NCBI GenBank assembly: GCA_964640385.1
Contig: CAZXFL010000003.1
Coordinates: 100,725-164,724, forward strand
Source: an uncultured Actinomycetes bacterium
GTDB lineage: Bacteria > Actinomycetota > UBA4738 > JBBDHU01
Reading direction: 5' to 3'
DNA: 64,000 bases
The position numbers were made by a program, and so were the translations under genes. The notes below the pieces were generated by a model. It worked only from the letters and a program-made list of their open reading frames with translations, had not been told where the DNA came from and searched no databases. Positions 12,005 through 39,729 of this stretch are shown here, piece after piece; position 1 is the first letter of the stretch; every line of letters starts with the position of its first letter.

Positions 12005-12096
12005 AGCATATGAGCGGAGGCGGACGGGAATCGAACCCGCCGGAGAACTTGCGTCCCCCCACCGGTTTTGAAGACCGGGGGGCCCACCAGGAACCC
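12005..12096 (-). tRNA. selC: class-II tRNA with anticodon UCA (tRNA-Sec/selC candidate, or a Ser-type opal suppressor)
   Basis: Minus-strand fold: acceptor GGAGGCG/CGCCTCC with discriminator G; 3-bp D-stem with a GG-containing 11-nt D-loop; anticodon stem CCGGT/ACCGG with loop CUUCAAA (the same loop as E. coli selC); a ~20-nt variable arm forming a 6-bp hairpin with a GCAA loop; T-arm GGCGGG-TTCGATT-CCCGTC. The acceptor plus T-stem total 13 bp, as in tRNA-Sec. Confidence 0.5.
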
Positions 12097-12244
12097 TGAC
12101 GCCTCCGTGGGGCAGCCTATCCGTCCGGCGCCGTCGGCACGGTCGGGTCGCGACCGATCTCGCAGGCCGGGTTAGGCTACGTCGATGGAACCGGGTCCCG
12201 TGCGGGCCTCGATCTCGACTTCCTGATCTGAAGGAGCTGGCGAA

Positions 12245-15445: not shown

Positions 15446-16573
15446 GTGCCCGCGTCAGGGGACCCCGTTGGGGGGTCGAATGTGAGTCAGACGTCTCAGG
15501 AGACCGTGGAAGATCTCGAGCGCTTCAAGCACGCCTTCGCCAGCGCCCCTATCGGCATGGCGTTGGTGGGCAGCGACTTCCGGTTCCTGGAGGTCAACGA
15601 CGCTCTCTGCGCCATGGTCGGCTACCCGCGTGAGGAGCTGACGGGCCTCACCTTCGTCGACATCACGCACCCGGATGACGCCGAGATCGGCGCGCACCTG
15701 GCCAAGCAGCTGTTCGAGGGGGAGCTACCGCACTACCGGATCGAGAAGCGCTACCTGGCCAAGTCGGGCGACGTGATCTGGGTCGACCTCAGCGCCACCC
15801 TGATCCCCGCCGGGGACGGCACGCCCTATGGCCTCGGGATCATCGAGAACATCACCGACCGCAAGACGGGCGAGATCCAGCTGCGGGAGCTGGAGGCCGA
15901 GCAGCGCAAGCTGCTCGACGCCACCATGGGCGCGGTCGAGGACGAGCGCAGCCACCTCGCCGGGGAACTCAGCGACGGGACGATCCCGCGCCTGACTGCG
16001 TTCGCGCAGAAGGTCGAGACCGTGCGGGCGACCCTGGCATCGTTGGCCGGTTCCATGGAGTCCGAGGCGTCCCTGCACGAGGTCCAGCAGGGCTTGACCG
16101 AAGAGGCGAGTTACCTGTACACGCTGGCCGGACGCCTGCGGCCGGTGATGCTGGCCCGTCAGGGGTTGGAGCCGGCGATCCAGGGACTGGCCGAGTGGCT
16201 CAAGTGGGCTCTGTCGATGCCGTGCACGATCAGCGTGGTCCTCGACGGCCGGCTCCCGCCCGAGGTCGAGATCAACGTCTACCGGATCGCGCAGGAAGCC
16301 GTGACCAACATCATCCGGCATTCGCGTGCCACGCTGACGTCGATCTCGGTCTGGAAGCAAGGCGATCAGATCCTGATGCACATCCGCGACAACGGCGTCG
16401 GGTTCGATGCGACCTCGCCGACCCGGGCCGAGAGCATGGGCATCGGCCTGATGCGCCGGCGCGCGCAAGCGCTCGGCGGGACGTTCAGCGTCGAGTCGGT
16501 GGTCGGCGGCGGCACGTCGGTCCGCGCGTCGATCCCCGCACCCGCACCCCCGCCGGCAGCCGAGGGCGAGTAG
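15446..16573 (+). CDS. PAS-domain sensor histidine kinase (HisKA_3/NarL-family type), cytoplasmic
   Basis: PAS (FKHAFASAPIGMALVGSDFRFLEVNDALCAMVGYPREEL). HATPase_c (IAQEAVTNIIRHS...IRDNGVGFD...GIGLMRRRAQALGGTFSV). No adjacent cognate response regulator; it sits directly upstream of the tad locus. Confidence 0.8.
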   Translation: MPASGDPVGGSNVSQTSQETVEDLERFKHAFASAPIGMALVGSDFRFLEVNDALCAMVGYPREELTGLTFVDITHPDDAEIGAHLAKQLFEGELPHYRIEKRYLAKSGDVIWVDLSATLIPAGDGTPYGLGIIENITDRKTGEIQLRELEAEQRKLLDATMGAVEDERSHLAGELSDGTIPRLTAFAQKVETVRATLASLAGSMESEASLHEVQQGLTEEASYLYTLAGRLRPVMLARQGLEPAIQGLAEWLKWALSMPCTISVVLDGRLPPEVEINVYRIAQEAVTNIIRHSRATLTSISVWKQGDQILMHIRDNGVGFDATSPTRAESMGIGLMRRRAQALGGTFSVESVVGGGTSVRASIPAPAPPPAAEGE

Positions 16574-16770: not shown

Positions 16771-17856
16771 ATGGAGACTATGGTTGGGGTCGCGAGGGTA
16801 TTGCTCGCGTGCGACGAACCGATGTTGGCCGAGGAAGTGATGAGCTTCCTCGATCGCACGGGTCGCGCGAAGGTGGTCGCCGCGGCGGCCGATCGGCAGC
16901 AACTCGCCGAAGCGGTGCGACAGGTGAGTCCGGACGTCATCGTCGCGACGCCGAGCCTCGCCGGTCATGTGGATGCCTCCGTCGCGCCGATCCTCGTCAT
17001 GGATCGGTCGGAAACGGTCGGCGGGCTCCGGACCGCGCTGCGGACCGGTGCGGTGGGGTTCACGGTGTGGCCGGATGACCGTGACGGTCTGGCCGGGCTG
17101 GTCGCATCGTCGGCGTCCGAGGCACCGGTCGCATCTGCTGCGGGACCGACGAAGGTGATCACCGTCGTCGGGGCGCGCGGCGGTGCGGGTGCGACGTTCC
17201 TCGCGACGCATCTGGCCGACGCCTGTGCGCGCCTGGGGTCGCGGACCATCCTGATCGATGTTGATCCGGTCTTCGGCGAGGTGGGGTTCGCGCTCGGCGC
17301 ACACCGGGATCCAGAGGCGAGAACGGCTCGCGAGCTGGTCCCGATGATGGACGAGCTGACCTCGGCGCATCTCGAGGAGGTCCTGTGGCCGCACCCACGC
17401 GGGTTCCGTGTGCTGCTCGGGGGCGAAGGCCTCCTGCCGTCACACCATCCCGGATTGCTGGCGGCGGCGGGCGGCGTGGCTGATGCCCTGATCGTTCATG
17501 TGCCCCGCTCCGACCTACTGGGTTCCGTCGGACTCCTGGCCGCGAGCGACCGCCTGCTCTGCGTGTTGCTGCTCGACGTCATGAGCTTCCAGTGTGCGAA
17601 ACGCCTCCTCGACGGGCTCGAGGCCCAGCCGGCACCGCAGGCGGATCTGGTCCTGAATCGCGCGTCGCGGGCCGAGCTGGTCCCGGGCGACGTCGTGCGC
17701 GTGTTCGGCCGTGCCCCCCTGGCGATCGTTCCCGAGGATCGCGCAGTGGCATCCGCGCAGGACCGGGGCCGGCTCCTCTCGCCACGGAGCCGTCCTTGCC
17801 GTGCGGTCACCCGGCTCGCCGGAACCATCCTCGAAGACGGGGAGCGGGCAGCGTGA
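16771..17856 (+). CDS. cpaE: Flp pilus assembly protein CpaE/TadZ (receiver-like N-domain plus ParA/MinD-type ATPase)
   Basis: Walker A-like VVGARGGAGATFLATHLA preceded by a REC-like N-terminal domain. Gene order with cpaF. Confidence 0.8.
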   Translation: METMVGVARVLLACDEPMLAEEVMSFLDRTGRAKVVAAAADRQQLAEAVRQVSPDVIVATPSLAGHVDASVAPILVMDRSETVGGLRTALRTGAVGFTVWPDDRDGLAGLVASSASEAPVASAAGPTKVITVVGARGGAGATFLATHLADACARLGSRTILIDVDPVFGEVGFALGAHRDPEARTARELVPMMDELTSAHLEEVLWPHPRGFRVLLGGEGLLPSHHPGLLAAAGGVADALIVHVPRSDLLGSVGLLAASDRLLCVLLLDVMSFQCAKRLLDGLEAQPAPQADLVLNRASRAELVPGDVVRVFGRAPLAIVPEDRAVASAQDRGRLLSPRSRPCRAVTRLAGTILEDGERAA

Positions 17857-19226
17857 GCGGCGACGGGGTCGCGTCTACGTCCCTGCGCCAACGGCTGCAC
17901 CGGCGCTTGGTCGAACGCGTCGACGCGGAGGTGTTCGGGTCGGTGTCGCGGGCCCAGCGCCGTCTCCGGGTACGTGAGGAGGCGCTGGCCATCCTTCGCG
18001 AGGAGGGGGAACTGTTGCCGCACGCGTCGCTGACGCGAGTCGTGAACGAGATCGCCGATCGTGTCGTCGGGCTCGGACCCATCGAGTCACTCCTGCGGGA
18101 CCCGGAGGTGACCGAGGTCATGGTCAACGGGCCCGGCGACGTCTACGTGGAGCGGAGGGGGCGGCTCGAGAGGGTGCCCGATGTCCTATTCGAGGGGGAG
18201 GAGGATGTCGTGCATGTGATCGAGAGGATCGTGGCACCGCTCGGTCTGCGGGTCGATGGATCGTCACCATATGTGGACGCCAGACTCGCGGACGGCAGCC
18301 GTGTGCATGCGATCCTTCCGCCCCTTTCGCTCTGCGGCCCCGTCCTAACGGTGCGCAAGTTCTCGCTGGCCCCACTCTCGCCCGAGGACCTGGTCGGCAG
18401 TGGAACGCTGGGTCCTCGGATGCTTCTGTTCCTCGCTGCGTGCGTCCGCGGGAAGGCGAACATCGTCATCTCCGGCGGTACCAGTTCCGGCAAGACCACC
18501 TTCCTCAACGTGATCTCCTCGTTCATCCCCGAGCGCGAGCGGCTCATCACGATCGAAGATGCGGCCGAGCTCCGGCTCGGGAAGTCGCACGTGGTCGGTC
18601 TCGAGGCCCGGCCGCCCAACGTCGAGGGCAGCGGCGAGGTGACGGTACGGGACCTCGTCCGGAACGCGCTGCGGATGCGCCCCGACCGGATCATCGTGGG
18701 CGAGGTGCGTGGCGGCGAGGCCCTCGACATGTTGCAGGCCATGAACACCGGCCACGACGGCTCGCTCTCGACCGCACACGCGAACTCCTCCCGCCACTTG
18801 CTCTGGCGGCTCGAGACGATGGCGCTGATGTCGGACATCGATCTTCCCGTCGAGCACGTGCGCGGGCAGGTCGCCTCGGCCGTCGACGTGATCGTCCACA
18901 TGGCCCGCCTGGCCGACGGCAGTCGGAAGGTCACCGATATCTGCACGGTCGAAGGGTTCCACGACGGACGTCCGGTCCTCGAGCACGTCTTCCGCCTCGA
19001 CCGATCGTCGGGATCGACGGGCGTCTTCGTCGGGTCCGGGCAGGAGCCGGCGCTGGCAGGGATCCTCGTCGAGCGGGGGGAACGGTTGCCCGACGGACTC
19101 TTCGGTAGTCATGCGGATGTCGCCGGTCCGCCCGGAAGGGGGTCCCGGGACCCGGGAACCCCCGCGGGGGCCGCGCCGTCGCCGTCCGATGACGAGATCG
19201 TGCTCGAGCCGGCGGTGTCCCGATGA
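17853..19226 (+). CDS. cpaF: Flp pilus assembly ATPase CpaF/TadA
   Basis: VirB11-family motifs: SGGTSSGKTT (Walker A), RPDRIIVGEVRGGEA, GHDGSLST. GTG start overlaps the cpaE stop (GTGA). Confidence 0.9.
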   Translation: MSGDGVASTSLRQRLHRRLVERVDAEVFGSVSRAQRRLRVREEALAILREEGELLPHASLTRVVNEIADRVVGLGPIESLLRDPEVTEVMVNGPGDVYVERRGRLERVPDVLFEGEEDVVHVIERIVAPLGLRVDGSSPYVDARLADGSRVHAILPPLSLCGPVLTVRKFSLAPLSPEDLVGSGTLGPRMLLFLAACVRGKANIVISGGTSSGKTTFLNVISSFIPERERLITIEDAAELRLGKSHVVGLEARPPNVEGSGEVTVRDLVRNALRMRPDRIIVGEVRGGEALDMLQAMNTGHDGSLSTAHANSSRHLLWRLETMALMSDIDLPVEHVRGQVASAVDVIVHMARLADGSRKVTDICTVEGFHDGRPVLEHVFRLDRSSGSTGVFVGSGQEPALAGILVERGERLPDGLFGSHADVAGPPGRGSRDPGTPAGAAPSPSDDEIVLEPAVSR

Positions 19227-19948
19227 TCCTCTGGATGTTGGCATGTGGCGCCACCGGGGCGGCGCTGCTCGGCACCTCATGCGTGGTTGCCGCCCGCGAC
19301 CATCAGCAGGTCACACCGCGCATCGGCCTCCCCGGCGCCCGTGCGCGGCGGCGTCCACTGTGGGCCGGCCGAGTCGGATGGCTGGGAGCCTTCCGTCGTC
19401 GGAGGCAGGCCGTCCTGCTTGCGTCGCAACTCGCAGAGATGGTGCGGTCCGTAGCCGGTGGCCTGCGTTCGGGAGCGTCGTTGTCCGGCTCGCTGGCGCT
19501 CACCGCGAAGGAGTCTCCACAGCCGGTCTCGGATGTGTTGTCGGGGGTCGTAGCCGGGGAGGCTGCCGGTGCGGGGCTCGATGACGGCCTCGCGCGCTGG
19601 GCGAGCGAGGCCGGGGACGACGACGTCGGGTTGGTGGTCGCCGCCGTCCGTATGCACCGGCGAGCCGGTGGCGATCTCCCATCGGTGTTGGACCGGCTCG
19701 CGGGAACGCTGGACGAGCGGACGGCGTGCCGCCGTGAAGTGCGGTCGCTGACGGCACAGGCCCGGCTCTCGGGGCTCGTCGTGGGTCTGCTTCCGGTCGG
19801 GTTCTTCGCGTTCCTGTCACTGACCTCTCCCAGGGATATGGCTGCGGCGTATGCCTCGCCCATCGGCGGGTTCGCCATCGTGGCCGGCCTGATGCTGGAG
19901 GGCGGTGCGTTCCTGTGGATCCGGCACCTCCTGCGGGTGGATCCATGA
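19223..19948 (+). CDS. tadB: Flp pilus assembly protein TadB (T2SS-F domain)
   Basis: Membrane protein with a GspF-like domain. Its ATG overlaps the cpaF stop. Confidence 0.8.
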   Translation: MILWMLACGATGAALLGTSCVVAARDHQQVTPRIGLPGARARRRPLWAGRVGWLGAFRRRRQAVLLASQLAEMVRSVAGGLRSGASLSGSLALTAKESPQPVSDVLSGVVAGEAAGAGLDDGLARWASEAGDDDVGLVVAAVRMHRRAGGDLPSVLDRLAGTLDERTACRREVRSLTAQARLSGLVVGLLPVGFFAFLSLTSPRDMAAAYASPIGGFAIVAGLMLEGGAFLWIRHLLRVDP

Positions 19949-20781
19949 TGGCCCTGCTTGCACCTCTTCTCGGGGCCCTGGCGGTGGCCTGCGTCGTGTT
20001 GGCTTCATGGCCCGATGGCCGGCGGGGCTTGCTGGTGATGGCCGGACCGGTCCTACCGAGAGACGGTGCACCCATGCGGCTCCGCCGGCAGCACCTCGGT
20101 CGCGTCGGGGCGTCTCGCATCGGGTCGCTGATCCGGGGATCGAAGCCATCGCCGCTCAGCGGCGCAGCCGGCTGGTCGGGAGAGGAACTCGCCGGGGCAC
20201 AGATCCTCGTCGGGACGGGAGTCGCGCTCGGCTCGCTACTCGTCGGCGTCCCCCTCGCTGCCGGTGCGATCCTGGCCGTCCTTGCCGGCGCCCTACCGCG
20301 GCTGTTCGCCGGTCGTGCGGCGCGAGCGCGGGCGGCTCGGATCGATCGCGAGGTCCCTCAGCTCCTGGACCTGCTCGCCGCCGCGGCGTCCGCGGGACTC
20401 GCGGCTCCGCTGGCGCTTCGCCGCGCCACCGAGGGGCTGCGCGGTCCGCTCGCGACCGAGCTCGGGGACGCGTTCGGGAACGTGTCCCTCGGCGGCCGAT
20501 GGCGACACGAACTCGCTGGGCTGGCCGAGCGGCTGGCCAACGCAGACCTCCGTCGCATGGTTGCCGTCGTCGCGCGGACCGAGCGTCTCGGGATCCCCCT
20601 TGCGGACGCCGTGACCGGACTCGCGTCCGAGGTCCGGCGAGCACGCCGCGATGCCGCGATGGAGCGCGCGCGCAAGGCCCCGGTCAAGATGCTCCTTCCC
20701 CTCGTGTTCATGATCCTGCCTGCGTTCCTCCTCCTCACGGTGGTTCCGGTGCTGGTGTCGACCGTCCGGTCGATCCGATGA
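19945..20781 (+). CDS. tadC: Flp pilus assembly protein TadC (T2SS-F domain)
   Basis: Second GspF-like membrane protein. ATGA overlap with the tadB stop. Confidence 0.75.
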   Translation: MMALLAPLLGALAVACVVLASWPDGRRGLLVMAGPVLPRDGAPMRLRRQHLGRVGASRIGSLIRGSKPSPLSGAAGWSGEELAGAQILVGTGVALGSLLVGVPLAAGAILAVLAGALPRLFAGRAARARAARIDREVPQLLDLLAAAASAGLAAPLALRRATEGLRGPLATELGDAFGNVSLGGRWRHELAGLAERLANADLRRMVAVVARTERLGIPLADAVTGLASEVRRARRDAAMERARKAPVKMLLPLVFMILPAFLLLTVVPVLVSTVRSIR

Positions 20782-20795
20782 GAAGGAGGTATCCG

Positions 20796-20984
20796 ATGTT
20801 GCAGAGGTTGTACGTCCGGCTACTGCTGGCTCGCGAGGAGGGCCAGACGACGGCCGAATACGCGCTGGTGATCCTGGCCGCGGCCGCGGTCGCCGTGGTC
20901 CTGATCGCGTGGGCGAAGTCCTCGGGCAAGCTGCCCTCGTTCTTCGACAACATCATCGATCAGGTCACCGGGAGTGCCTCGTAG
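20796..20984 (+). CDS. flp: Flp family type IVb pilin
   Basis: 62-aa prepilin with the Flp motif EGQTTAEYALVILAAAAVAVVLI, preceded by a GAAGGAGG RBS. Confidence 0.7.
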   Translation: MLQRLYVRLLLAREEGQTTAEYALVILAAAAVAVVLIAWAKSSGKLPSFFDNIIDQVTGSAS

Positions 20985-34929: not shown

Positions 34930-35381
34930 AGATCGTCCTGCAGAAGCCCGTCGAGAAGCTCGGCGTGCCCGGGGACGTCGTCGAGGTTAAGGATGGCTAT
35001 GCCCGCAACTTCCTGTTCCCCCGCGGGCTGGCCGTCCAGGCCTCCAAGGGCACTGTCCGCCACGCCGAGAGCCTCCGGGCGGCGCAGGACCGCCGGTCGA
35101 CCAAGTCCAAGGCCGCGGCCGAGGATCTGGCCGGCACCCTCAAGTCGCTGCCGATCCTGATCCGGATGAAGGCGGGCGAGGACGGGAAGCTGTTCGGCTC
35201 GGTCACCACGGCCGACATCGCCGCCGAGATCGAGGCTGCCGCTGCCGATGGGACCCCCATCGACAAACACTGGGTCCAGATCGACGAGCCCATCAGGTCA
35301 ACGGGTGCTCACCCCGTGACACTCAAGCTGCATCCCGAGGTCGAGGTCGAAGTGACCATCGAGGTGCAGGCCGAGGCCTAG
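34926..35381 (+). CDS. rplI: 50S ribosomal protein L9
   Basis: [40 protein letters not shown] overlap with the rpsR stop. Confidence 0.9.
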
Positions 35382-35901
35382 GCCCTAGCGGGGACGGGGT
35401 CCTCGTGCGCGCTGCTCGGATCCCTTCGCTCCCGCTCGGGACCTCGTCGACGCTCGCACGAGTCCCCGCCCCCTGCCGTCACCAGCCTGCGGGCGCACCC
35501 GTTCCGCACCGTGGCCTTGGGAGCCAGAACCTGTCCGTTCCTCCGGGAATCGATCCATGGCTGTAAGGCGCGGTCGGTCGCCTGCTTTCTGGCCGTGACG
35601 GGGTCGGTGAATGCCGCATCCCTGTCCGAGGACGTACACCTCGCCCGAACGGCAGGGTGCAGTTCCCATGGCCGGGCCTTCGTCCCGAAAATGTCAGTGG
35701 TGGGAATTACAATCGTGCCATTCGGTGTTATGCACCGTTTTCCACCGGTTGTCCCAACGCCAAAACCGCAGGTGGGTAAGGGAATGACAGGAAAGTTCGA
35801 GATGCGACCTGGGGAAAGAGTTCTCCACACCCGAATCCCCTCGCTTTCCCATTCCCAGGCGGGGGGCGCGGGGCCTACCCTGCGGGTTCCGTCGACGGGG
35901 G

Positions 35902-38580
35902 GTGTGGTGGTTGGCGCTGGTCGCTGAGGATCCCCGGCGGATCCGTCCAGATCGGATACCGCCACACAACCTGGACGCTGAGGAATCGGTCCTCGGCTCC
36001 ATGATGCTGTCCGGCGAAGCCATCGCTGACGTCGTGTCCCAGCTCAAGGCCGACGACTTCTACCGTTCGGCTAACGGCACCATCTTCAAGGCCATCCTGT
36101 CGATCTACGCCCACGGCTCGCCCGTCGACGCCATCACCGTCGTCGAGGAGCTGAAGCGCGGCGGAAACCTCGAGCAGATCGGGGGTCACCTCTACGTCCA
36201 CGAGCTGGTGCAGAACGTCGCGACCCCGGCCAGCGCGGCTCACTACGCGCGGATCGTCGGGGAACTGGCGCTCCTGCGGCGGATGATCGCGGCGGCCGGC
36301 AGGATCATGGAGCTCGGCTACTCCAACCCCCGCGACCCCGAACGCACAGCAGATGATGCCGAGGACCTCATCTACAAAGTCGCCCGCCACAGCGAGCAGG
36401 ACGAGGTCGTGTCGATGGCGGCGCTCGTCGATGGCGCCATCACCGAACTCGAGAAGTCCCAGCAGCACGATTCGCCGTTCGTCGGGGTCCCCACCGGCTT
36501 CACCGACCTGGACTCGCTGACCGCGGGCCTGCACCCGGGGAACCTGATCGTGATCGCCGCGCGTCCGGGCGTCGGGAAATCCTCCCTCGTGACCAATCTG
36601 GCGCGCAACGTGGCGGTCGCGGCCGGCACCTCCGTCGCCATGTTCTCGCTCGAGATGTCGCGCTGGGAGATCGGCATGCGTCTGCTCTGCGGCGAGGCGA
36701 GGGTCCCCTGGGACAACATCCGCGGCAAGCGGACGAGCCCCGACGACTGGGCCCGCATCGTGGAGGCCGCCGAAGTCCTGAACGAGGCTCCGCTGTTCGT
36801 GGTCGACTCGGGCAACATCAACATCGTGGACATCAGGGCGAAGGCCCGGCGGCTCCGGTCCAAGCCGGGCCTGGGCATGATCATCGTCGACTACCTCCAG
36901 CTCATGTCCTCGCCGGGCCGCGTCGAGTCGCGCCAGCAGGAGATCGCCGAGATCAGCCGGAACCTTAAGCTGCTGGCCAAGGAGATGGAGATCCCGGTCA
37001 TCGCGGTCTCCCAGCTCAACCGCGACCCGGAGCGCCGGCAGGACAAGCGGCCTCAACTCTCGGACCTGCGCGAATGCGTGACCGGCGACACGTTGGTATG
37101 CCTCGCCGACGGGAGCCGGGTTCCGATCCGCGGGTTGGTCGGCTCAACGCCCGAGGTCCTCGCCGTCTCGGCCGAAGGCCGTCTGGTCGTCGCCGGCAGC
37201 GACCGGGTGTGGTCGAAGGGGAACAAACCGGTTTTCGCGGTCCAGACCGCGACCGGACGGATGATGCGGGTGACCGCGCGTCACCGTGTGCTCACCGAAC
37301 GAGGGTGGACGCGGGTACACGACCTGGAGGTGGGTGACCGGCTGGCCCTCGCCCGCAAGATGCCCGAGCCCGCCAACCCGCTCCAGTGGCCGGACGACCA
37401 TGTGATGCTCCTCGCACACCTGATCGCCGCGGCGGATCTGTCGGGCCACCCCGTGGCCTACGGCACCCGCTTCGAGGAGAACGCCCGCGCGGTGACCGCA
37501 GCGGCGCGCCAGAGCTTCGACATCACACCGGAGTGGATCGAGGGCGAGCGGCACGCCGTGTCCTTCGACGGCACGGACCACCCGAACGCGTTCGACGACT
37601 GGTTGAACGGGCTCTCGCTCGCGGGGCGCCGGCGGCCGGAGCTGAGGGTTCCCGGTGACGTCTTCCGTCTGGCGGACGCGCAGATCGCGAGGTTCTTGCG
37701 GCACCTGTGGGCCGACGCGGGCGCCATCGCTCCCGGGGTGGTCGGCGGCGGGATGGCCGACATGTGGTTCTCCGCGACCGGGCGGGGGCTCGCCGAGGAC
37801 GTTGCTGCGCTGCTCTTGCGAGTGGGGGTCGTCGCCCAGCTTCACGACGCCTCGACCGGCGCGGCGGACCGATATGAGGTCGCGGTGGTCGGCGTCGACG
37901 AGCAGGCCCGGTTCCTCGAACGTGTCGGAGCGTTCGGGCCGCTGGTTCCGTCGGCCGAGCAGCTCGCGCTGGTGCTGACCAGCATGGCCGACGTCACGAT
38001 CAGCTCCCTGCCGCGTGAGGTCTTCGACGGCAACGGGAACGGTGCCCACGGCATCTCGTCCCGGATGACGGCGGCCCTGCGAGGGACGACGTCGGGCGGC
38101 GGGGACGCGGGTTCGACGGGCGAGGCGCGTCCGTGGCACCCGAGCCGGACGGGCAAGGCGGGGACCGGAGGCGGTGCCACCGGCGTCGATCCGGACGCAG
38201 CAGCGGACGAGTCGCCCGTTCCGACAGCCGGCGGGCGGGACCTGCTCTGGGACCCGGTCGTATCGGTGGTGATCGACGGCGAGGAGGAGGTCTTCGATCT
38301 CACCGTGCCGGGACCGGCTTCCTGGCTCGCGGACGGTGTCGTGAGCCACAACTCCGGTGCCATCGAGCAGGACGCCGACATCGTCATGTTCATCCACCGC
38401 GAGGATTCCGAGGATCCGCAGGTCAAGGGCACCGCCGACCTGATTATCGCCAAGCACCGCAACGGACCGACCGGCGTCGTGAAACTGACGTTCCTGCCGC
38501 AGCTGACGCAGTTCAAGAACTACGCGCCCCCACAGGCCGTCGGCAACTACCCGCCGCAGTCGCAGCCGACCGGTCCGTGA
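35902..38580 (+). CDS. dnaB: replicative DNA helicase DnaB containing a 426-aa intein
   Basis: N- and C-exteins align with DnaB (Walker A GVGKSS; ...QLSDLRE | SGAIEQDADIVMFIHRED...). The insert begins with Cys and ends with ...VVSHN followed by Ser. Confidence 0.9.
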   Translation: MWWLALVAEDPRRIRPDRIPPHNLDAEESVLGSMMLSGEAIADVVSQLKADDFYRSANGTIFKAILSIYAHGSPVDAITVVEELKRGGNLEQIGGHLYVHELVQNVATPASAAHYARIVGELALLRRMIAAAGRIMELGYSNPRDPERTADDAEDLIYKVARHSEQDEVVSMAALVDGAITELEKSQQHDSPFVGVPTGFTDLDSLTAGLHPGNLIVIAARPGVGKSSLVTNLARNVAVAAGTSVAMFSLEMSRWEIGMRLLCGEARVPWDNIRGKRTSPDDWARIVEAAEVLNEAPLFVVDSGNINIVDIRAKARRLRSKPGLGMIIVDYLQLMSSPGRVESRQQEIAEISRNLKLLAKEMEIPVIAVSQLNRDPERRQDKRPQLSDLRECVTGDTLVCLADGSRVPIRGLVGSTPEVLAVSAEGRLVVAGSDRVWSKGNKPVFAVQTATGRMMRVTARHRVLTERGWTRVHDLEVGDRLALARKMPEPANPLQWPDDHVMLLAHLIAAADLSGHPVAYGTRFEENARAVTAAARQSFDITPEWIEGERHAVSFDGTDHPNAFDDWLNGLSLAGRRRPELRVPGDVFRLADAQIARFLRHLWADAGAIAPGVVGGGMADMWFSATGRGLAEDVAALLLRVGVVAQLHDASTGAADRYEVAVVGVDEQARFLERVGAFGPLVPSAEQLALVLTSMADVTISSLPREVFDGNGNGAHGISSRMTAALRGTTSGGGDAGSTGEARPWHPSRTGKAGTGGGATGVDPDAAADESPVPTAGGRDLLWDPVVSVVIDGEEEVFDLTVPGPASWLADGVVSHNSGAIEQDADIVMFIHREDSEDPQVKGTADLIIAKHRNGPTGVVKLTFLPQLTQFKNYAPPQAVGNYPPQSQPTGP
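37075..38352 (+). other. DnaB intein (splicing domain plus LAGLIDADG-type homing-endonuclease remnant)
   Basis: Intein block A CVTGDTLV. C-terminal HN followed by the +1 Ser. Internal LAGLIDADG-like blocks (LLAHLIAAADLSG; FLRHLWADAGAI). Inserted in the conserved DnaB ATPase H4 site, as in known DnaB-b inteins. Confidence 0.85.
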
Positions 38581-39258: not shown

Positions 39259-39729
39259 TCAGGCGACCGACGGCGGCGGCGACGGTTCCTCGGGGAGATC
39301 GAAGGCGTATCCAGCGGTGACCCACCCTTTGTCCTGCTCGTAGGCGAGGTTCACATCGAAGCCGACCTCCTGGCCGTTCGGGAGCACGACGTGGAAGGTC
39401 ACGCAGGCCCCGTCGTGGGCGCCCGCGGTATCTCTCCATATACAGGACGGTGACGTGTCAACGGCCGTGAGGGTCGCGCCGGCCAGGTCGTCATGGATGG
39501 CCCCCAGGACCTCTAGGCAGGACCCGCGCTTCTGAGGGACCGTCTGCGACCGGCAGGTCGAATCGTCGATGGCAGCCTCCCAGTCGTCCGAGGTCACCGT
39601 CGAGAAGAAGCGCTCGGCGACCGCCCGGGGCCCCGGTCCCGGCGGCGGCTCCTCCGAGTTGAAGATCTGTGACAGGAACAGGGCCACGGTGAGCGCGAAG
39701 ATCACGAACGCCAGCGAGAGCAGCTTCAT
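39259..39729 (-). CDS. secreted hypothetical protein
   Basis: Signal peptide MKLLSLAFVIFALTVALFLSQI. Confidence 0.5.
   Translation of the reverse strand: MKLLSLAFVIFALTVALFLSQIFNSEEPPPGPGPRAVAERFFSTVTSDDWEAAIDDSTCRSQTVPQKRGSCLEVLGAIHDDLAGATLTAVDTSPSCIWRDTAGAHDGACVTFHVVLPNGQEVGFDVNLAYEQDKGWVTAGYAFDLPEEPSPPPSVA

What the first reader, a model, noticed from the sequence alone, without database searches (positions are those of the whole stretch)
37075..38352. DnaB intein (426 aa) with LAGLIDADG-like endonuclease blocks
The helicase is split exactly after ...QLSDLRE and resumes with SGAIEQDADIVMF. The insert starts with Cys (CVTGDTLV) and ends in ...VVSHN followed by Ser. These are the canonical intein block A and block G contexts at the DnaB-b insertion site. 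Two internal LAGLIDADG-like motifs indicate a homing endonuclease, possibly decayed.

The inferred host helicase is 466 aa after splicing.
Basis: partly seen in the sequence, partly recalled or inferred. Interest (0 to 1): 0.5.

Follow-up and report, generated by a model that had tools for sequence, protein, structure and literature searches.

The report
DnaB intein with disabled, conserved endonuclease
The chromosomal replicative helicase gene of an uncultured actinobacterium is interrupted by a real 426-residue self-splicing intein of a known family; its homing-endonuclease domain has lost its catalytic residues yet is still kept by selection, so this is an ordinary find with one mildly interesting feature.

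Summary
Window 37075-38352 (+) is an in-frame 1,278-bp insert in chromosomal dnaB. It starts CVTGDTLV and ends VVSHN|S, and removing it restores ...DLRESGAIEQDAD..., the sequence seen in 120 intein-less orthologs. Intein HMMs, LAGLIDADG_3 and NCBIfam's intein-bearing DnaB model all pass their cutoffs, and all class-1 splicing residues are present.

- The site is not DnaB-b, which is the P-loop. It lies in motif H4, two residues upstream of the Mtu/Ssp site a, so site c by elimination.
- The start is more likely TTG 35911, giving a 463-aa mature DnaB rather than 466.

The endonuclease lacks all three canonical active-site residues (block C Asp, block D Lys, block E Asp). It is a -6.8 SD outlier from its family, while the splicing lobes are typical. 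It is not decaying freely, however. In three genomes sharing this intein, the endonuclease core has dN/dS 0.07-0.09, the same as the splicing domain.

The best reading is a splicing-competent intein with a dead endonuclease retained as a structural module. It is a new member of a known kind, and interest is low to moderate.

The parts
35911..38580 (+). dnaB precursor CDS. The likely start is TTG 35911, the alternative is GTG 35902, and the stop is at 38578-38580.
   Evidence: Pfam DnaB and DnaB_C (split), and NCBIfam NF005852 at 813 bits against a cutoff of 780. The start is inferred from alignment with the ATG of P0242 and from ortholog N-terminal lengths. Context is rpsF-ssb-(rpsR)-rplI-dnaB-nth.
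35911..37074 (+). N-extein, ending ...KRPQLSDLRE. The P-loop ARPGVGKS is intact, so site b is empty.
37075..38352 (+). Intein, 426 aa, class 1, at DnaB motif H4 site RE|SG (site c).
   Evidence: Pfam PF14890 at 57 bits, TIGR01445 and TIGR01443 above their cutoffs. The family HMM matches exactly 37075-38352. It is a clean insertion relative to the empty allele.
37075..37374 (+). Hint N-terminal splicing lobe (aa 1-100), with block A Cys1 (37075-37077) and block B T67-x-x-H70 (37273-37284).
   Evidence: Invariant columns C1, T67, H70. Identity to the family consensus is 0.70, z=+0.1. It matches the Ssp and Npu DnaB mini-intein structures at E 1e-22. dN/dS is 0.08-0.11.
37375..37998 (+). LAGLIDADG endonuclease core (aa 101-308), catalytically disabled but conserved.
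   Evidence: Pfam PF14528 at 34.6 bits. AF2 pLDDT is mostly above 90, and Foldseek finds TliVMA, PI-PfuI and PI-SceI. Over aa 101-386, 28 of 69 near-invariant family columns are broken, z=-6.8. dN/dS is 0.07-0.09.
37393..37437 (+). Block C (LAGLIDADG helix 1). It reads LLAHLIA-AADLSG against the family's LLGHLIGDGSYL, so the Asp before Gly is lost along with a 1-aa deletion.
37642..37644 (+). Block D position, Leu190 where the family has an invariant Lys (..SHEKR[IVL]P.. becomes ..RRPELRVP..).
37675..37722 (+). Block E (LAGLIDADG helix 2). It reads FLRHLWADAGAI against the family's LLRHLWATDGTI, so the Asp before Gly is replaced by Ala215.
37999..38232 (+). Gly/Ala-rich, indel-prone linker (aa 309-386) that replaces the family's conserved C-terminal accessory segment. 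It is predicted to be disordered.
   Evidence: pLDDT is below 50 over 320-386. Window-specific insertions lie at aa 349-354 and 366-374. No frameshift is involved. dN/dS is 0.15-0.24, with indels among close relatives.
38233..38352 (+). Hint C-terminal splicing lobe (aa 387-426), with block F Asp408 (38296-38298) and block G His425-Asn426 (38347-38352).
   Evidence: Invariant columns D408, H425, N426. There are no amino-acid differences among the three relatives. TIGR01443 passes its cutoff.
38353..38580 (+). C-extein, starting with the Ser+1 nucleophile (38353-38355): SGAIEQDADIVMF... Coordinates include the stop codon.

Best explanation
This is a class-1 intein in the chromosomal replicative helicase DnaB of an uncultured actinobacterium, inserted in DNA-binding motif H4 between Glu and Ser of DLRE|SGAIEQDAD. 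After translation, Cys1 attacks the upstream peptide bond and Ser+1 takes over the N-extein. Asn426 then cyclises with help from His425, and the exteins are joined into a normal DnaB of about 463 aa. These steps are inferred from the fully conserved residues and from the fact that dnaB is essential. The nested LAGLIDADG domain descends from an apparently active homing endonuclease family that occupies this same site in many phyla. In this lineage it has lost the block C Asp, the block D Lys and the block E Asp, so it most likely can no longer cut DNA or home, which is inferred from sequence. It is inherited vertically in a small clade. The domain has not been left to drift: its core is under purifying selection as strong as the splicing domain's, which is shown. 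The most likely reason is that the Hint fold and efficient splicing of an essential protein depend on a well-folded insert, which is inferred. Only the Gly/Ala-rich linker that follows is evolving loosely.
For: Boundaries and clean insertion. Intein and LAGLIDADG HMMs and NF005852 above their cutoffs. The spliced product gives one uninterrupted DnaB_C match (1-255/255, 340 bits), and the junction is identical to 56 of 120 intein-less orthologs. Splicing residues C1, T67, H70, D408, H425, N426 and S+1 are invariant in 60-120 homologs. All 120 homologs sit at the same RE|C..SHN|SG site and keep GDGS and ATDG/ATEG. The window is typical in the Hint lobes (z +0.1 and -1.0) but -6.8 SD in the endonuclease region, with 28 of 69 near-invariant columns broken. 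The family's D, K and D align with blocks C, D and E of the experimentally active TliVMA intein. Loss of these aspartates makes PhoVMA inactive (PMC8966425). The fold is that of inteins with a nested homing endonuclease. The same disabled motifs occur in two other genomes with a syntenic locus. dN/dS by region. The closest orthologs (67-78% identity) all lack the intein and have the same synteny.
Against: Splicing and the lack of cleavage are not shown experimentally. An Asp remains within 1-2 residues of each lost catalytic position (D121, D214), so a non-canonical active site cannot be excluded. dN/dS rests on three MAG-derived sequences and the Nei-Gojobori method, and the pairs are not independent. 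Constraint as strong as the Hint domain's is more than a mere spacer would seem to need. The AF2 confidence in the endonuclease core is driven by the family alignment and does not prove that this divergent copy folds.
Confidence: 0.72

Rival explanations
1. The endonuclease is still active through a non-canonical active site (for example D121 and D214, shifted by 1-2 residues). Purifying selection would then reflect continued homing into the many intein-less dnaB alleles of related lineages.
For: dN/dS is 0.07-0.09 in the core. Under the homing-cycle model, selection on the endonuclease implies activity (PMC3229294). The closest orthologs are all intein-free, so targets exist. An Asp lies close to each lost position.
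Against: All three canonical residues (Asp, Lys, Asp) are missing, together with 25 other near-invariant family positions and part of a conserved loop (SGNGNRW). The C-terminal accessory segment has been replaced by a disordered linker. Intein dS is at least as high as extein dS and the three loci are syntenic, which fits vertical descent rather than recent transfer. The analogous loss in PhoVMA abolishes cleavage.
Confidence: 0.12
2. The disabled LAGLIDADG domain has been co-opted for a new role, such as sequence-specific DNA binding by the excised intein (WhiA-like or maturase-like) or modulation of splicing as a post-translational control on DnaB.
For: Constraint is strong despite loss of catalysis. 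There was a burst of divergence on the branch leading to the clade, followed by conservation. LAGLIDADG-derived non-nuclease DNA binders such as WhiA appear among the fold matches. Conditional splicing of DnaB inteins is documented in mycobacteria (PMC6195587, PMC7360933).
Against: There is no direct evidence. The clade is tiny and its sister lineages do without the intein. A folding constraint in an essential precursor explains the same data more simply.
Confidence: 0.1
3. The endonuclease is in free neutral decay on its way to becoming a mini-intein, which is the strict reading of 'decayed'.
For: Catalytic residues are lost and the region is a -6.8 SD outlier. Composition is mildly shifted toward Ala/Gly/Arg/Pro in the endonuclease region (z=+2.0). 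The linker is indel-prone.
Against: In the core, 25% of differences are nonsynonymous against 74% expected under neutrality, which is indistinguishable from the Hint domain (Fisher p=0.34). There are no frameshifts or stops. All three relatives keep identical blocks C, D and E.
Confidence: 0.04
4. It is not a functional intein: dnaB here is a pseudogene, an assembly artefact, or hosts a different kind of insertion or an overlapping antisense gene.
For: Long antisense ORFs exist, for example 37144-38457 (-), 437 aa.
Against: The antisense and off-frame ORFs have no Pfam match and are usual at 68-72% GC. Synonymous sites in the + frame are free to change (dS 0.6-0.9). The same gene is found in independent assemblies. 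Extein dN/dS is 0.00-0.07.
Confidence: 0.02

Closest known systems
DnaB motif-H4 'site c' LAGLIDADG inteins (NCBI names several members 'intein-containing replicative DNA helicase'; site defined in Novikova et al. 2016, PMC4760082)
   Same: The insertion point is identical (LRE|C...SHN|SG) in 120 of 120 retrieved homologs. The intein aligns full-length (E to 6e-96, 40-48% identity). It has the same Hint blocks and the same two-lobed LAGLIDADG architecture.
   Different: The window clade alone lacks the block C Asp, block D Lys and block E Asp. It has 28 of 69 near-invariant endonuclease columns changed, small deletions, and a Gly/Ala-rich disordered linker in place of the conserved ...YGG..HF.FAPSR..YA.. 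segment. That 'c' is the correct letter is inferred by elimination, not read from a table.
Mycobacterial-type DnaB intein at site a (Mtu DnaBi, Msm DnaBi2; represented here by Nocardia farcinica DnaB)
   Same: The host protein and H4 motif are the same. It is a class-1 intein with Cys1, His-Asn and Ser+1. The LAGLIDADG blocks are homologous (MIGDGSC, HLWATDGS) and the length is similar at 425 aa.
   Different: It is inserted two residues downstream (RESG|C...HN|SLEQ) and is only 30.6% identical to the window intein. The Nocardia copy keeps the canonical acidic residues.
Ssp and Npu DnaB mini-inteins (PDB 1MI8, 6FRG, 4O1R)
   Same: These are the closest solved structures for the splicing domain (E 1e-22 to 1e-20; 36-40% identity; rmsd about 1 A to the model).
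   Different: They are at site a (Gly at -1) and have no endonuclease domain.
PhoVMA intein (PDB 7QST), a degenerated homing endonuclease in an archaeal VMA intein (PMC8966425)
   Same: [quoted passage not shown] It was shown to be inactive and could be rescued by grafting them back.
   Different: The host protein, domain of life and accessory domains differ. Selection on the dead domain was not the question in that work.

Membership tests
Class 1 intein (Hint domain) | N-terminal nucleophile Cys or Ser at position 1 (block A) | tested here: met
   Cys1 at 37075-37077, invariant in homologs
Class 1 intein (Hint domain) | Block B T-x-x-H | tested here: met
   T67-A-R-H70. H70 is invariant and T67 is invariant in the 15-sequence alignment and at least 90% conserved in the 60-sequence one
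Class 1 intein (Hint domain) | Block F Asp, and block G penultimate His plus terminal Asn | tested here: met
   D408, H425 and N426 are invariant, and TIGR01443 scores 22-24 bits against a cutoff of 15.6
Class 1 intein (Hint domain) | Ser, Thr or Cys at +1 of the C-extein | tested here: met
   Ser at 38353-38355
Class 1 intein (Hint domain) | Curated HMM membership | tested here: met
   PF14890 scores 57 bits (cutoff 35.8) and TIGR01445 scores 38-39 bits (cutoff 24.5)
Class 1 intein (Hint domain) | In-frame insert whose removal restores a conserved host motif | tested here: met
   DnaB_C matches 1-255/255 uninterrupted after removal. The junction equals that of intein-less orthologs, and the DNA breakpoints are clean
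Class 1 intein (Hint domain) | Autocatalytic protein splicing | not testable with these tools
   Inferred from the conserved residues, the essential host gene and extein dN/dS of 0.00-0.07
Active LAGLIDADG homing endonuclease | Two LAGLIDADG helices in an alpha-beta-beta-alpha-beta-beta-alpha pseudo-dimer | tested here: met
   PF14528 scores 34.6 bits (cutoff 22.5). AF2 secondary structure and Foldseek match TliVMA, PI-PfuI and PI-SceI
Active LAGLIDADG homing endonuclease | Acidic residue immediately before the Gly at the end of each LAGLIDADG helix (blocks C and E) | tested here: not met
   The window has LIA-AADLS and WADAG where the family has GDG and TDG, and 120 of 120 homologs keep Asp or Glu
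Active LAGLIDADG homing endonuclease | Block D lysine | tested here: not met
   Leu190 stands where the family has an invariant Lys, which aligns to the K-V-P of TliVMA
Active LAGLIDADG homing endonuclease | Site-specific cleavage of the intein-less allele | not testable with these tools
   The empty-site sequence is available from L082
DnaB site c intein family | Insertion between Glu and Ser of DLRE|SG in motif H4 | tested here: met
   The letter 'c' is inferred from 'a and c two residues apart' plus the need for a nucleophile at +1
DnaB site a intein (Mtu, Msm DnaBi2, Ssp type) | Insertion after Gly of RESG|S | tested here: not met
   The window has Glu at -1. Nocardia has RESG|C..HN|SLEQ, and the 'G-1' mutants of Ssp and Msm DnaBi2 confirm Gly at -1
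   The P-loop ARPGVGKS is uninterrupted, and site b is defined as the P-loop in PMC4760082 and PMC6195587
NCBIfam NF005852 (PRK07773) intein-bearing replicative DNA helicase | Whole-protein score above the curated cutoff | tested here: met
   813.1 bits against 780, in a single stretch covering 15-875

The most novel reading that the evidence does not exclude
The catalytically disabled LAGLIDADG domain is kept because it does something. It could be a domesticated DNA-binding or regulatory module of the excised intein, a tuner of DnaB splicing, or a nuclease with a shifted, non-canonical active site that still homes into the intein-free dnaB alleles of neighbouring lineages.
Probability: 0.2. 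Interest if true: 0.55.

Novelty: new member of a known kind. Interest (0 to 1): 0.3.

Why it matters
DnaB is the most frequent bacterial host of inteins, and this family and site are already catalogued, so the intein itself adds little. There are two points of value. First, the standard homing-cycle model predicts that an endonuclease that has lost activity drifts and is then deleted. Here a domain lacking all three canonical catalytic residues evolves under constraint as tight as the splicing domain, in an essential replication protein, with intein-free sister lineages available for comparison. That makes this small clade a clean natural test of whether the splicing domain depends on a folded endonuclease scaffold, as opposed to domestication or hidden activity. 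Second, public gene calls for this protein start at Met34, inside the DnaB N-terminal domain, and should be extended.

Tried and rejected
- **Compensating frameshifts in the divergent Gly/Ala-rich stretch.** Rejected. The family HMM matches one frame end to end (610 bits, one domain) and nothing off-frame.
- **Hidden antisense or out-of-frame gene inside the insert.** Six alternative ORFs gave no Pfam hit, and synonymous sites are unconstrained.
- **Closer relatives in JGI metagenome contigs.** A search with the endonuclease segment matched 600 patterns, none confirmed.
- **GTDB genome scan with the extein.** It is pattern-limited and returned only intein-less DnaBs of 50% identity or less. 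The protein database search was far more useful, reaching 76-78%.
- **Phage and plasmid collections.** There was nothing close: a Planktothrix phage DnaB Hint lobe at 42% over 92 aa, and a Nocardia chromosome piece mislabelled as a plasmid, which served as the site-a comparator.
- **Endonuclease-only profile against PDB.** It is weak on its own (E about 0.1) and is used only for residue correspondence, backed by the full-profile hit (E 6e-8) and Foldseek.
- **Composition as evidence of neutral drift.** The shift is only mild (z about 2), so it was not relied on.
Full report
**Observation.** ORF 35902..38580 (+) encodes an 892-codon DnaB. An HMM built from the intein part of 120 homologs matches the window at precisely 37075-38352 (412 bits, E 9e-127), with no other hit in six frames. 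blastn against the locus of the closest intein-less ortholog stops at 37075 and resumes at 38353, and both ends map to one base of the uninterrupted gene.

**Identity.**
- Pfam finds DnaB, a split DnaB_C, Intein_splicing (57 bits, cutoff 35.8) and LAGLIDADG_3 (34.6 bits, cutoff 22.5).
- NCBIfam finds intein_Nterm and intein_Cterm above their cutoffs, and the intein-bearing DnaB equivalog NF005852 at 813 bits against a cutoff of 780.
- After removing the insert in silico, DnaB_C matches 1-255/255 in one piece (340 bits).
- The ligated junction KRPQLSDLRESGAIEQDAD is identical to 56 of the 120 closest DnaB orthologs, and all 120 are uninterrupted there.
- The gene sits in the usual chromosomal context panB-hyp-rpsF-ssb-(rpsR)-rplI-dnaB-nth-tRNA-Gly-trpD-dcd-ugd, syntenic with the intein-less ortholog in GCA_040880705.1. 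It is therefore the housekeeping replicative helicase.
- GC3 of the intein (0.88) equals that of the exteins (0.89-0.91), so it is a long-resident element.

**Splicing apparatus.** Cys1, T67-x-x-H70, Asp408, His425-Asn426 and Ser+1 are conserved across 15-, 60- and 120-sequence alignments. T67 is at least 90% conserved and the other six are invariant. The closest solved structures for the Hint domain are the Ssp and Npu DnaB mini-inteins (E 1e-22; 36-40% identity; about 1 A rmsd to the model). This is the canonical class-1 residue set, so splicing is inferred but not shown.

**Insertion site.**
- Novikova et al. 2016 (PMC4760082) and Kelley et al. 2018 (PMC6195587) define site b as the P-loop. 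They place sites a and c in motif H4, two residues apart, with Msm DnaBi2 and Mtu DnaBi at site a.
- Site a has Gly at -1. This follows from the 'G-1V' mutant of Msm DnaBi2, the 'G-1F' mutant of Ssp DnaB, and Nocardia farcinica DnaB, which reads DLRESG|CLPAS...SVHN|SLEQDAD.
- The window intein lies at DLRE|C...SHN|SGAIEQ, two residues upstream.
- A +1 nucleophile is required, so this is the only possible position two residues from site a. It is therefore site c, by elimination.
- The P-loop ARPGVGKS is intact.
- All 120 retrieved homologs of the intein (40-48% identity; Actinomycetota, Planctomycetota, Proteobacteria, Rokubacteria and others) occupy exactly this site.
- The site-a Nocardia intein is 30.6% identical but shares recognisable LAGLIDADG blocks, so the two site families are related.

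**Endonuclease domain.** The AF2 model has mean pLDDT 84.7 and pTM 0.83. It shows a Hint domain and a two-lobed LAGLIDADG core, both mostly above pLDDT 90, and a disordered stretch at about aa 309-386. Foldseek returns the full-length inteins with nested homing endonucleases: TliVMA, PhoVMA, PI-PfuI, PI-PkoII and PI-SceI. Compared with its family, the window copy is abnormal only in the endonuclease:

| Region | Identity to family consensus | z |
|---|---|---|
| Hint-N (aa 1-100) | 0.70 | +0.1 |
| Endonuclease region (aa 101-386) | 0.42 (family mean 0.68) | -6.8 |
| Hint-C (aa 387-426) | 0.78 | -1.0 |

- In the endonuclease region, 28 of 69 columns that are at least 95% conserved are broken. 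Family members average 1.4 broken columns, with a maximum of 7.
- The broken positions include the Asp of GDG in block C (LIA-AADLS), the Lys of ..EKR[IVL]P.. in block D (Leu190) and the Asp of TDG in block E (WADAG).
- All 120 homologs keep Asp (or in one case Glu) at the block C and block E positions. The block D Lys is invariant in the 14-sequence endonuclease alignment and at least 95% conserved across the 120.
- In a profile alignment these three positions pair with ADG, K-V-P and CDG of the TliVMA intein, whose endonuclease is experimentally active.
- The related PhoVMA intein lacks the block C and E aspartates, is inactive, and regains cleavage when they are grafted back (PMC8966425).
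- The divergent Gly/Ala-rich stretch is not a frameshift product.

I conclude that the endonuclease is very probably catalytically dead.

**The unexpected part.**
- The exact protein belongs to a 90% cluster with two other MAG proteins: MEX0992320.1 in GCA_040880465.1, and one in GCA_040960375.1.
- Both relatives have the syntenic locus and the same intein, with identical disabled blocks C, D and E. The loss therefore predates their divergence and the intein is inherited vertically.
- Nei-Gojobori estimates over the three pairs are as follows:

| Region | dN/dS |
|---|---|
| N-extein | 0.00-0.03 |
| Hint-N | 0.08-0.11 |
| Endonuclease core, aa 101-308 | 0.07-0.09 (dS 0.65-0.75) |
| Linker, aa 309-386 | 0.15-0.24, with indels |
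| Hint-C | 0.00-0.01 |
| C-extein | 0.05-0.07 |

- Pooled over the three pairs, the core has 226 synonymous and 77 nonsynonymous differences. That is 25% nonsynonymous against 74% expected under neutrality.
- The core is indistinguishable from the Hint lobes (p=0.34) and significantly tighter than the linker (p=4e-5).
- The domain therefore diverged strongly on the branch leading to this clade and has since been held by purifying selection. It is not in free decay.
- Caveats: there are only three sequences, all MAG-derived, the pairs are not independent, and the method is a simple counting one.

**Mechanism and rivals.** The best reading (0.72) is a splicing-competent intein whose dead endonuclease is kept as a folded structural module, because misfolding of a 290-residue insert would compromise splicing of an essential protein. 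This is the Hint-endonuclease dependence discussed in PMC8966425. The rivals are:
- a non-canonical but active nuclease that is still homing (0.12), since Asp121 and Asp214 lie 1-2 residues from the lost positions and intein-free targets abound;
- co-option for DNA binding or control of splicing (0.10);
- strict neutral decay (0.04), which is contradicted for the core;
- an artefact or pseudogene (0.02).

**Distribution.** The 120 closest DnaB orthologs (67-78% identity, Actinomycetota MAGs) are all about 450 aa and intein-free. The intein's own nearest relatives outside the clade are at most 48% identical and spread over several phyla. This is the usual sporadic pattern of horizontally acquired inteins. 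No close relative was found in phage or plasmid collections or in JGI metagenome contigs.

**Start codon.** The ATG of P0242 aligns with TTG 35911, which is preceded by a GGGGGG run at suitable spacing, and 90 orthologs have that N-terminal length. This gives a precursor of 889 aa and a mature DnaB of 463 aa. Public gene calls that start at Met34 (859 or 853 aa) cut into the DnaB N-terminal domain.

**Verdict.** It is a new member of a known intein family and site. Interest is low to moderate (0.3), and comes mainly from a catalytically disabled homing endonuclease being under strong purifying selection, with intein-free sister lineages at hand.

Noticed in passing
window 12014-12106 (-): A selenocysteine tRNA (ARAGORN anticodon TCA; Rfam RF01852 at 78.8 bits). 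This implies selenoprotein synthesis in this actinobacterium. No selA, selB or selD gene and no selenoprotein gene was looked for.
   Followed up: no
window 9871-~12010 (-): A roughly 710-codon open frame that abuts or overlaps the tRNA-Sec. It encodes a secreted-looking protein (signal-like N-terminus) with an extremely Gly-rich C-terminal half made of GGxGG-type runs. It has no Pfam match, and its GC3 of 0.77 is lower than neighbouring genes.
   Followed up: partly
window 16771-20984 (+): A Tad/Flp-like pilus assembly cluster: a CpaE/ParA-like ATPase, a T2SSE ATPase, a T2SSF membrane protein and a DUF4244 protein. A PAS histidine kinase lies upstream at 15446-16573.
   Followed up: no
window 39259-39729 (-); L085 6341-6811: A 156-aa ORF with a hydrophobic N-terminus and no Pfam match lies between nth and tRNA-Gly. 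It is present in the intein-bearing relative L085 but absent from the intein-less ortholog locus L082, where nth runs straight into tRNA-Gly and trpD.
   Followed up: partly
window 35381-35911; L085 2083-2544 (-); L086 2118-2579 (-): The rplI-dnaB spacer is about 530 bp here, against about 220 bp in the intein-less ortholog. Gene callers place a 153-aa minus-strand ORF without a Pfam match in this spacer in both close relatives.
   Followed up: no
window 36001 vs 35911: Public gene calls for this DnaB start at Met34 (859 or 853 aa), which truncates the DnaB N-terminal domain. TTG 35911 aligns with the ATG of MEX0992320.1 and with the ortholog N-termini.
   Followed up: yes
window 38577-38580: The dnaB stop overlaps the start of the endonuclease III (nth) gene by 4 bp. 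The same overlap is seen in the relatives, and in the intein-less ortholog the two genes share a single base. This suggests translational coupling of dnaB and nth.
   Followed up: no
L084 (NZ_LN868939.1, Nocardia farcinica 'plasmid 2', 2.66 Mb): The PLSDB record is evidently a chromosome piece: it carries the housekeeping dnaB with a site-a intein. It has only 2 annotated features, and the dnaB intein region is unannotated.
   Followed up: partly
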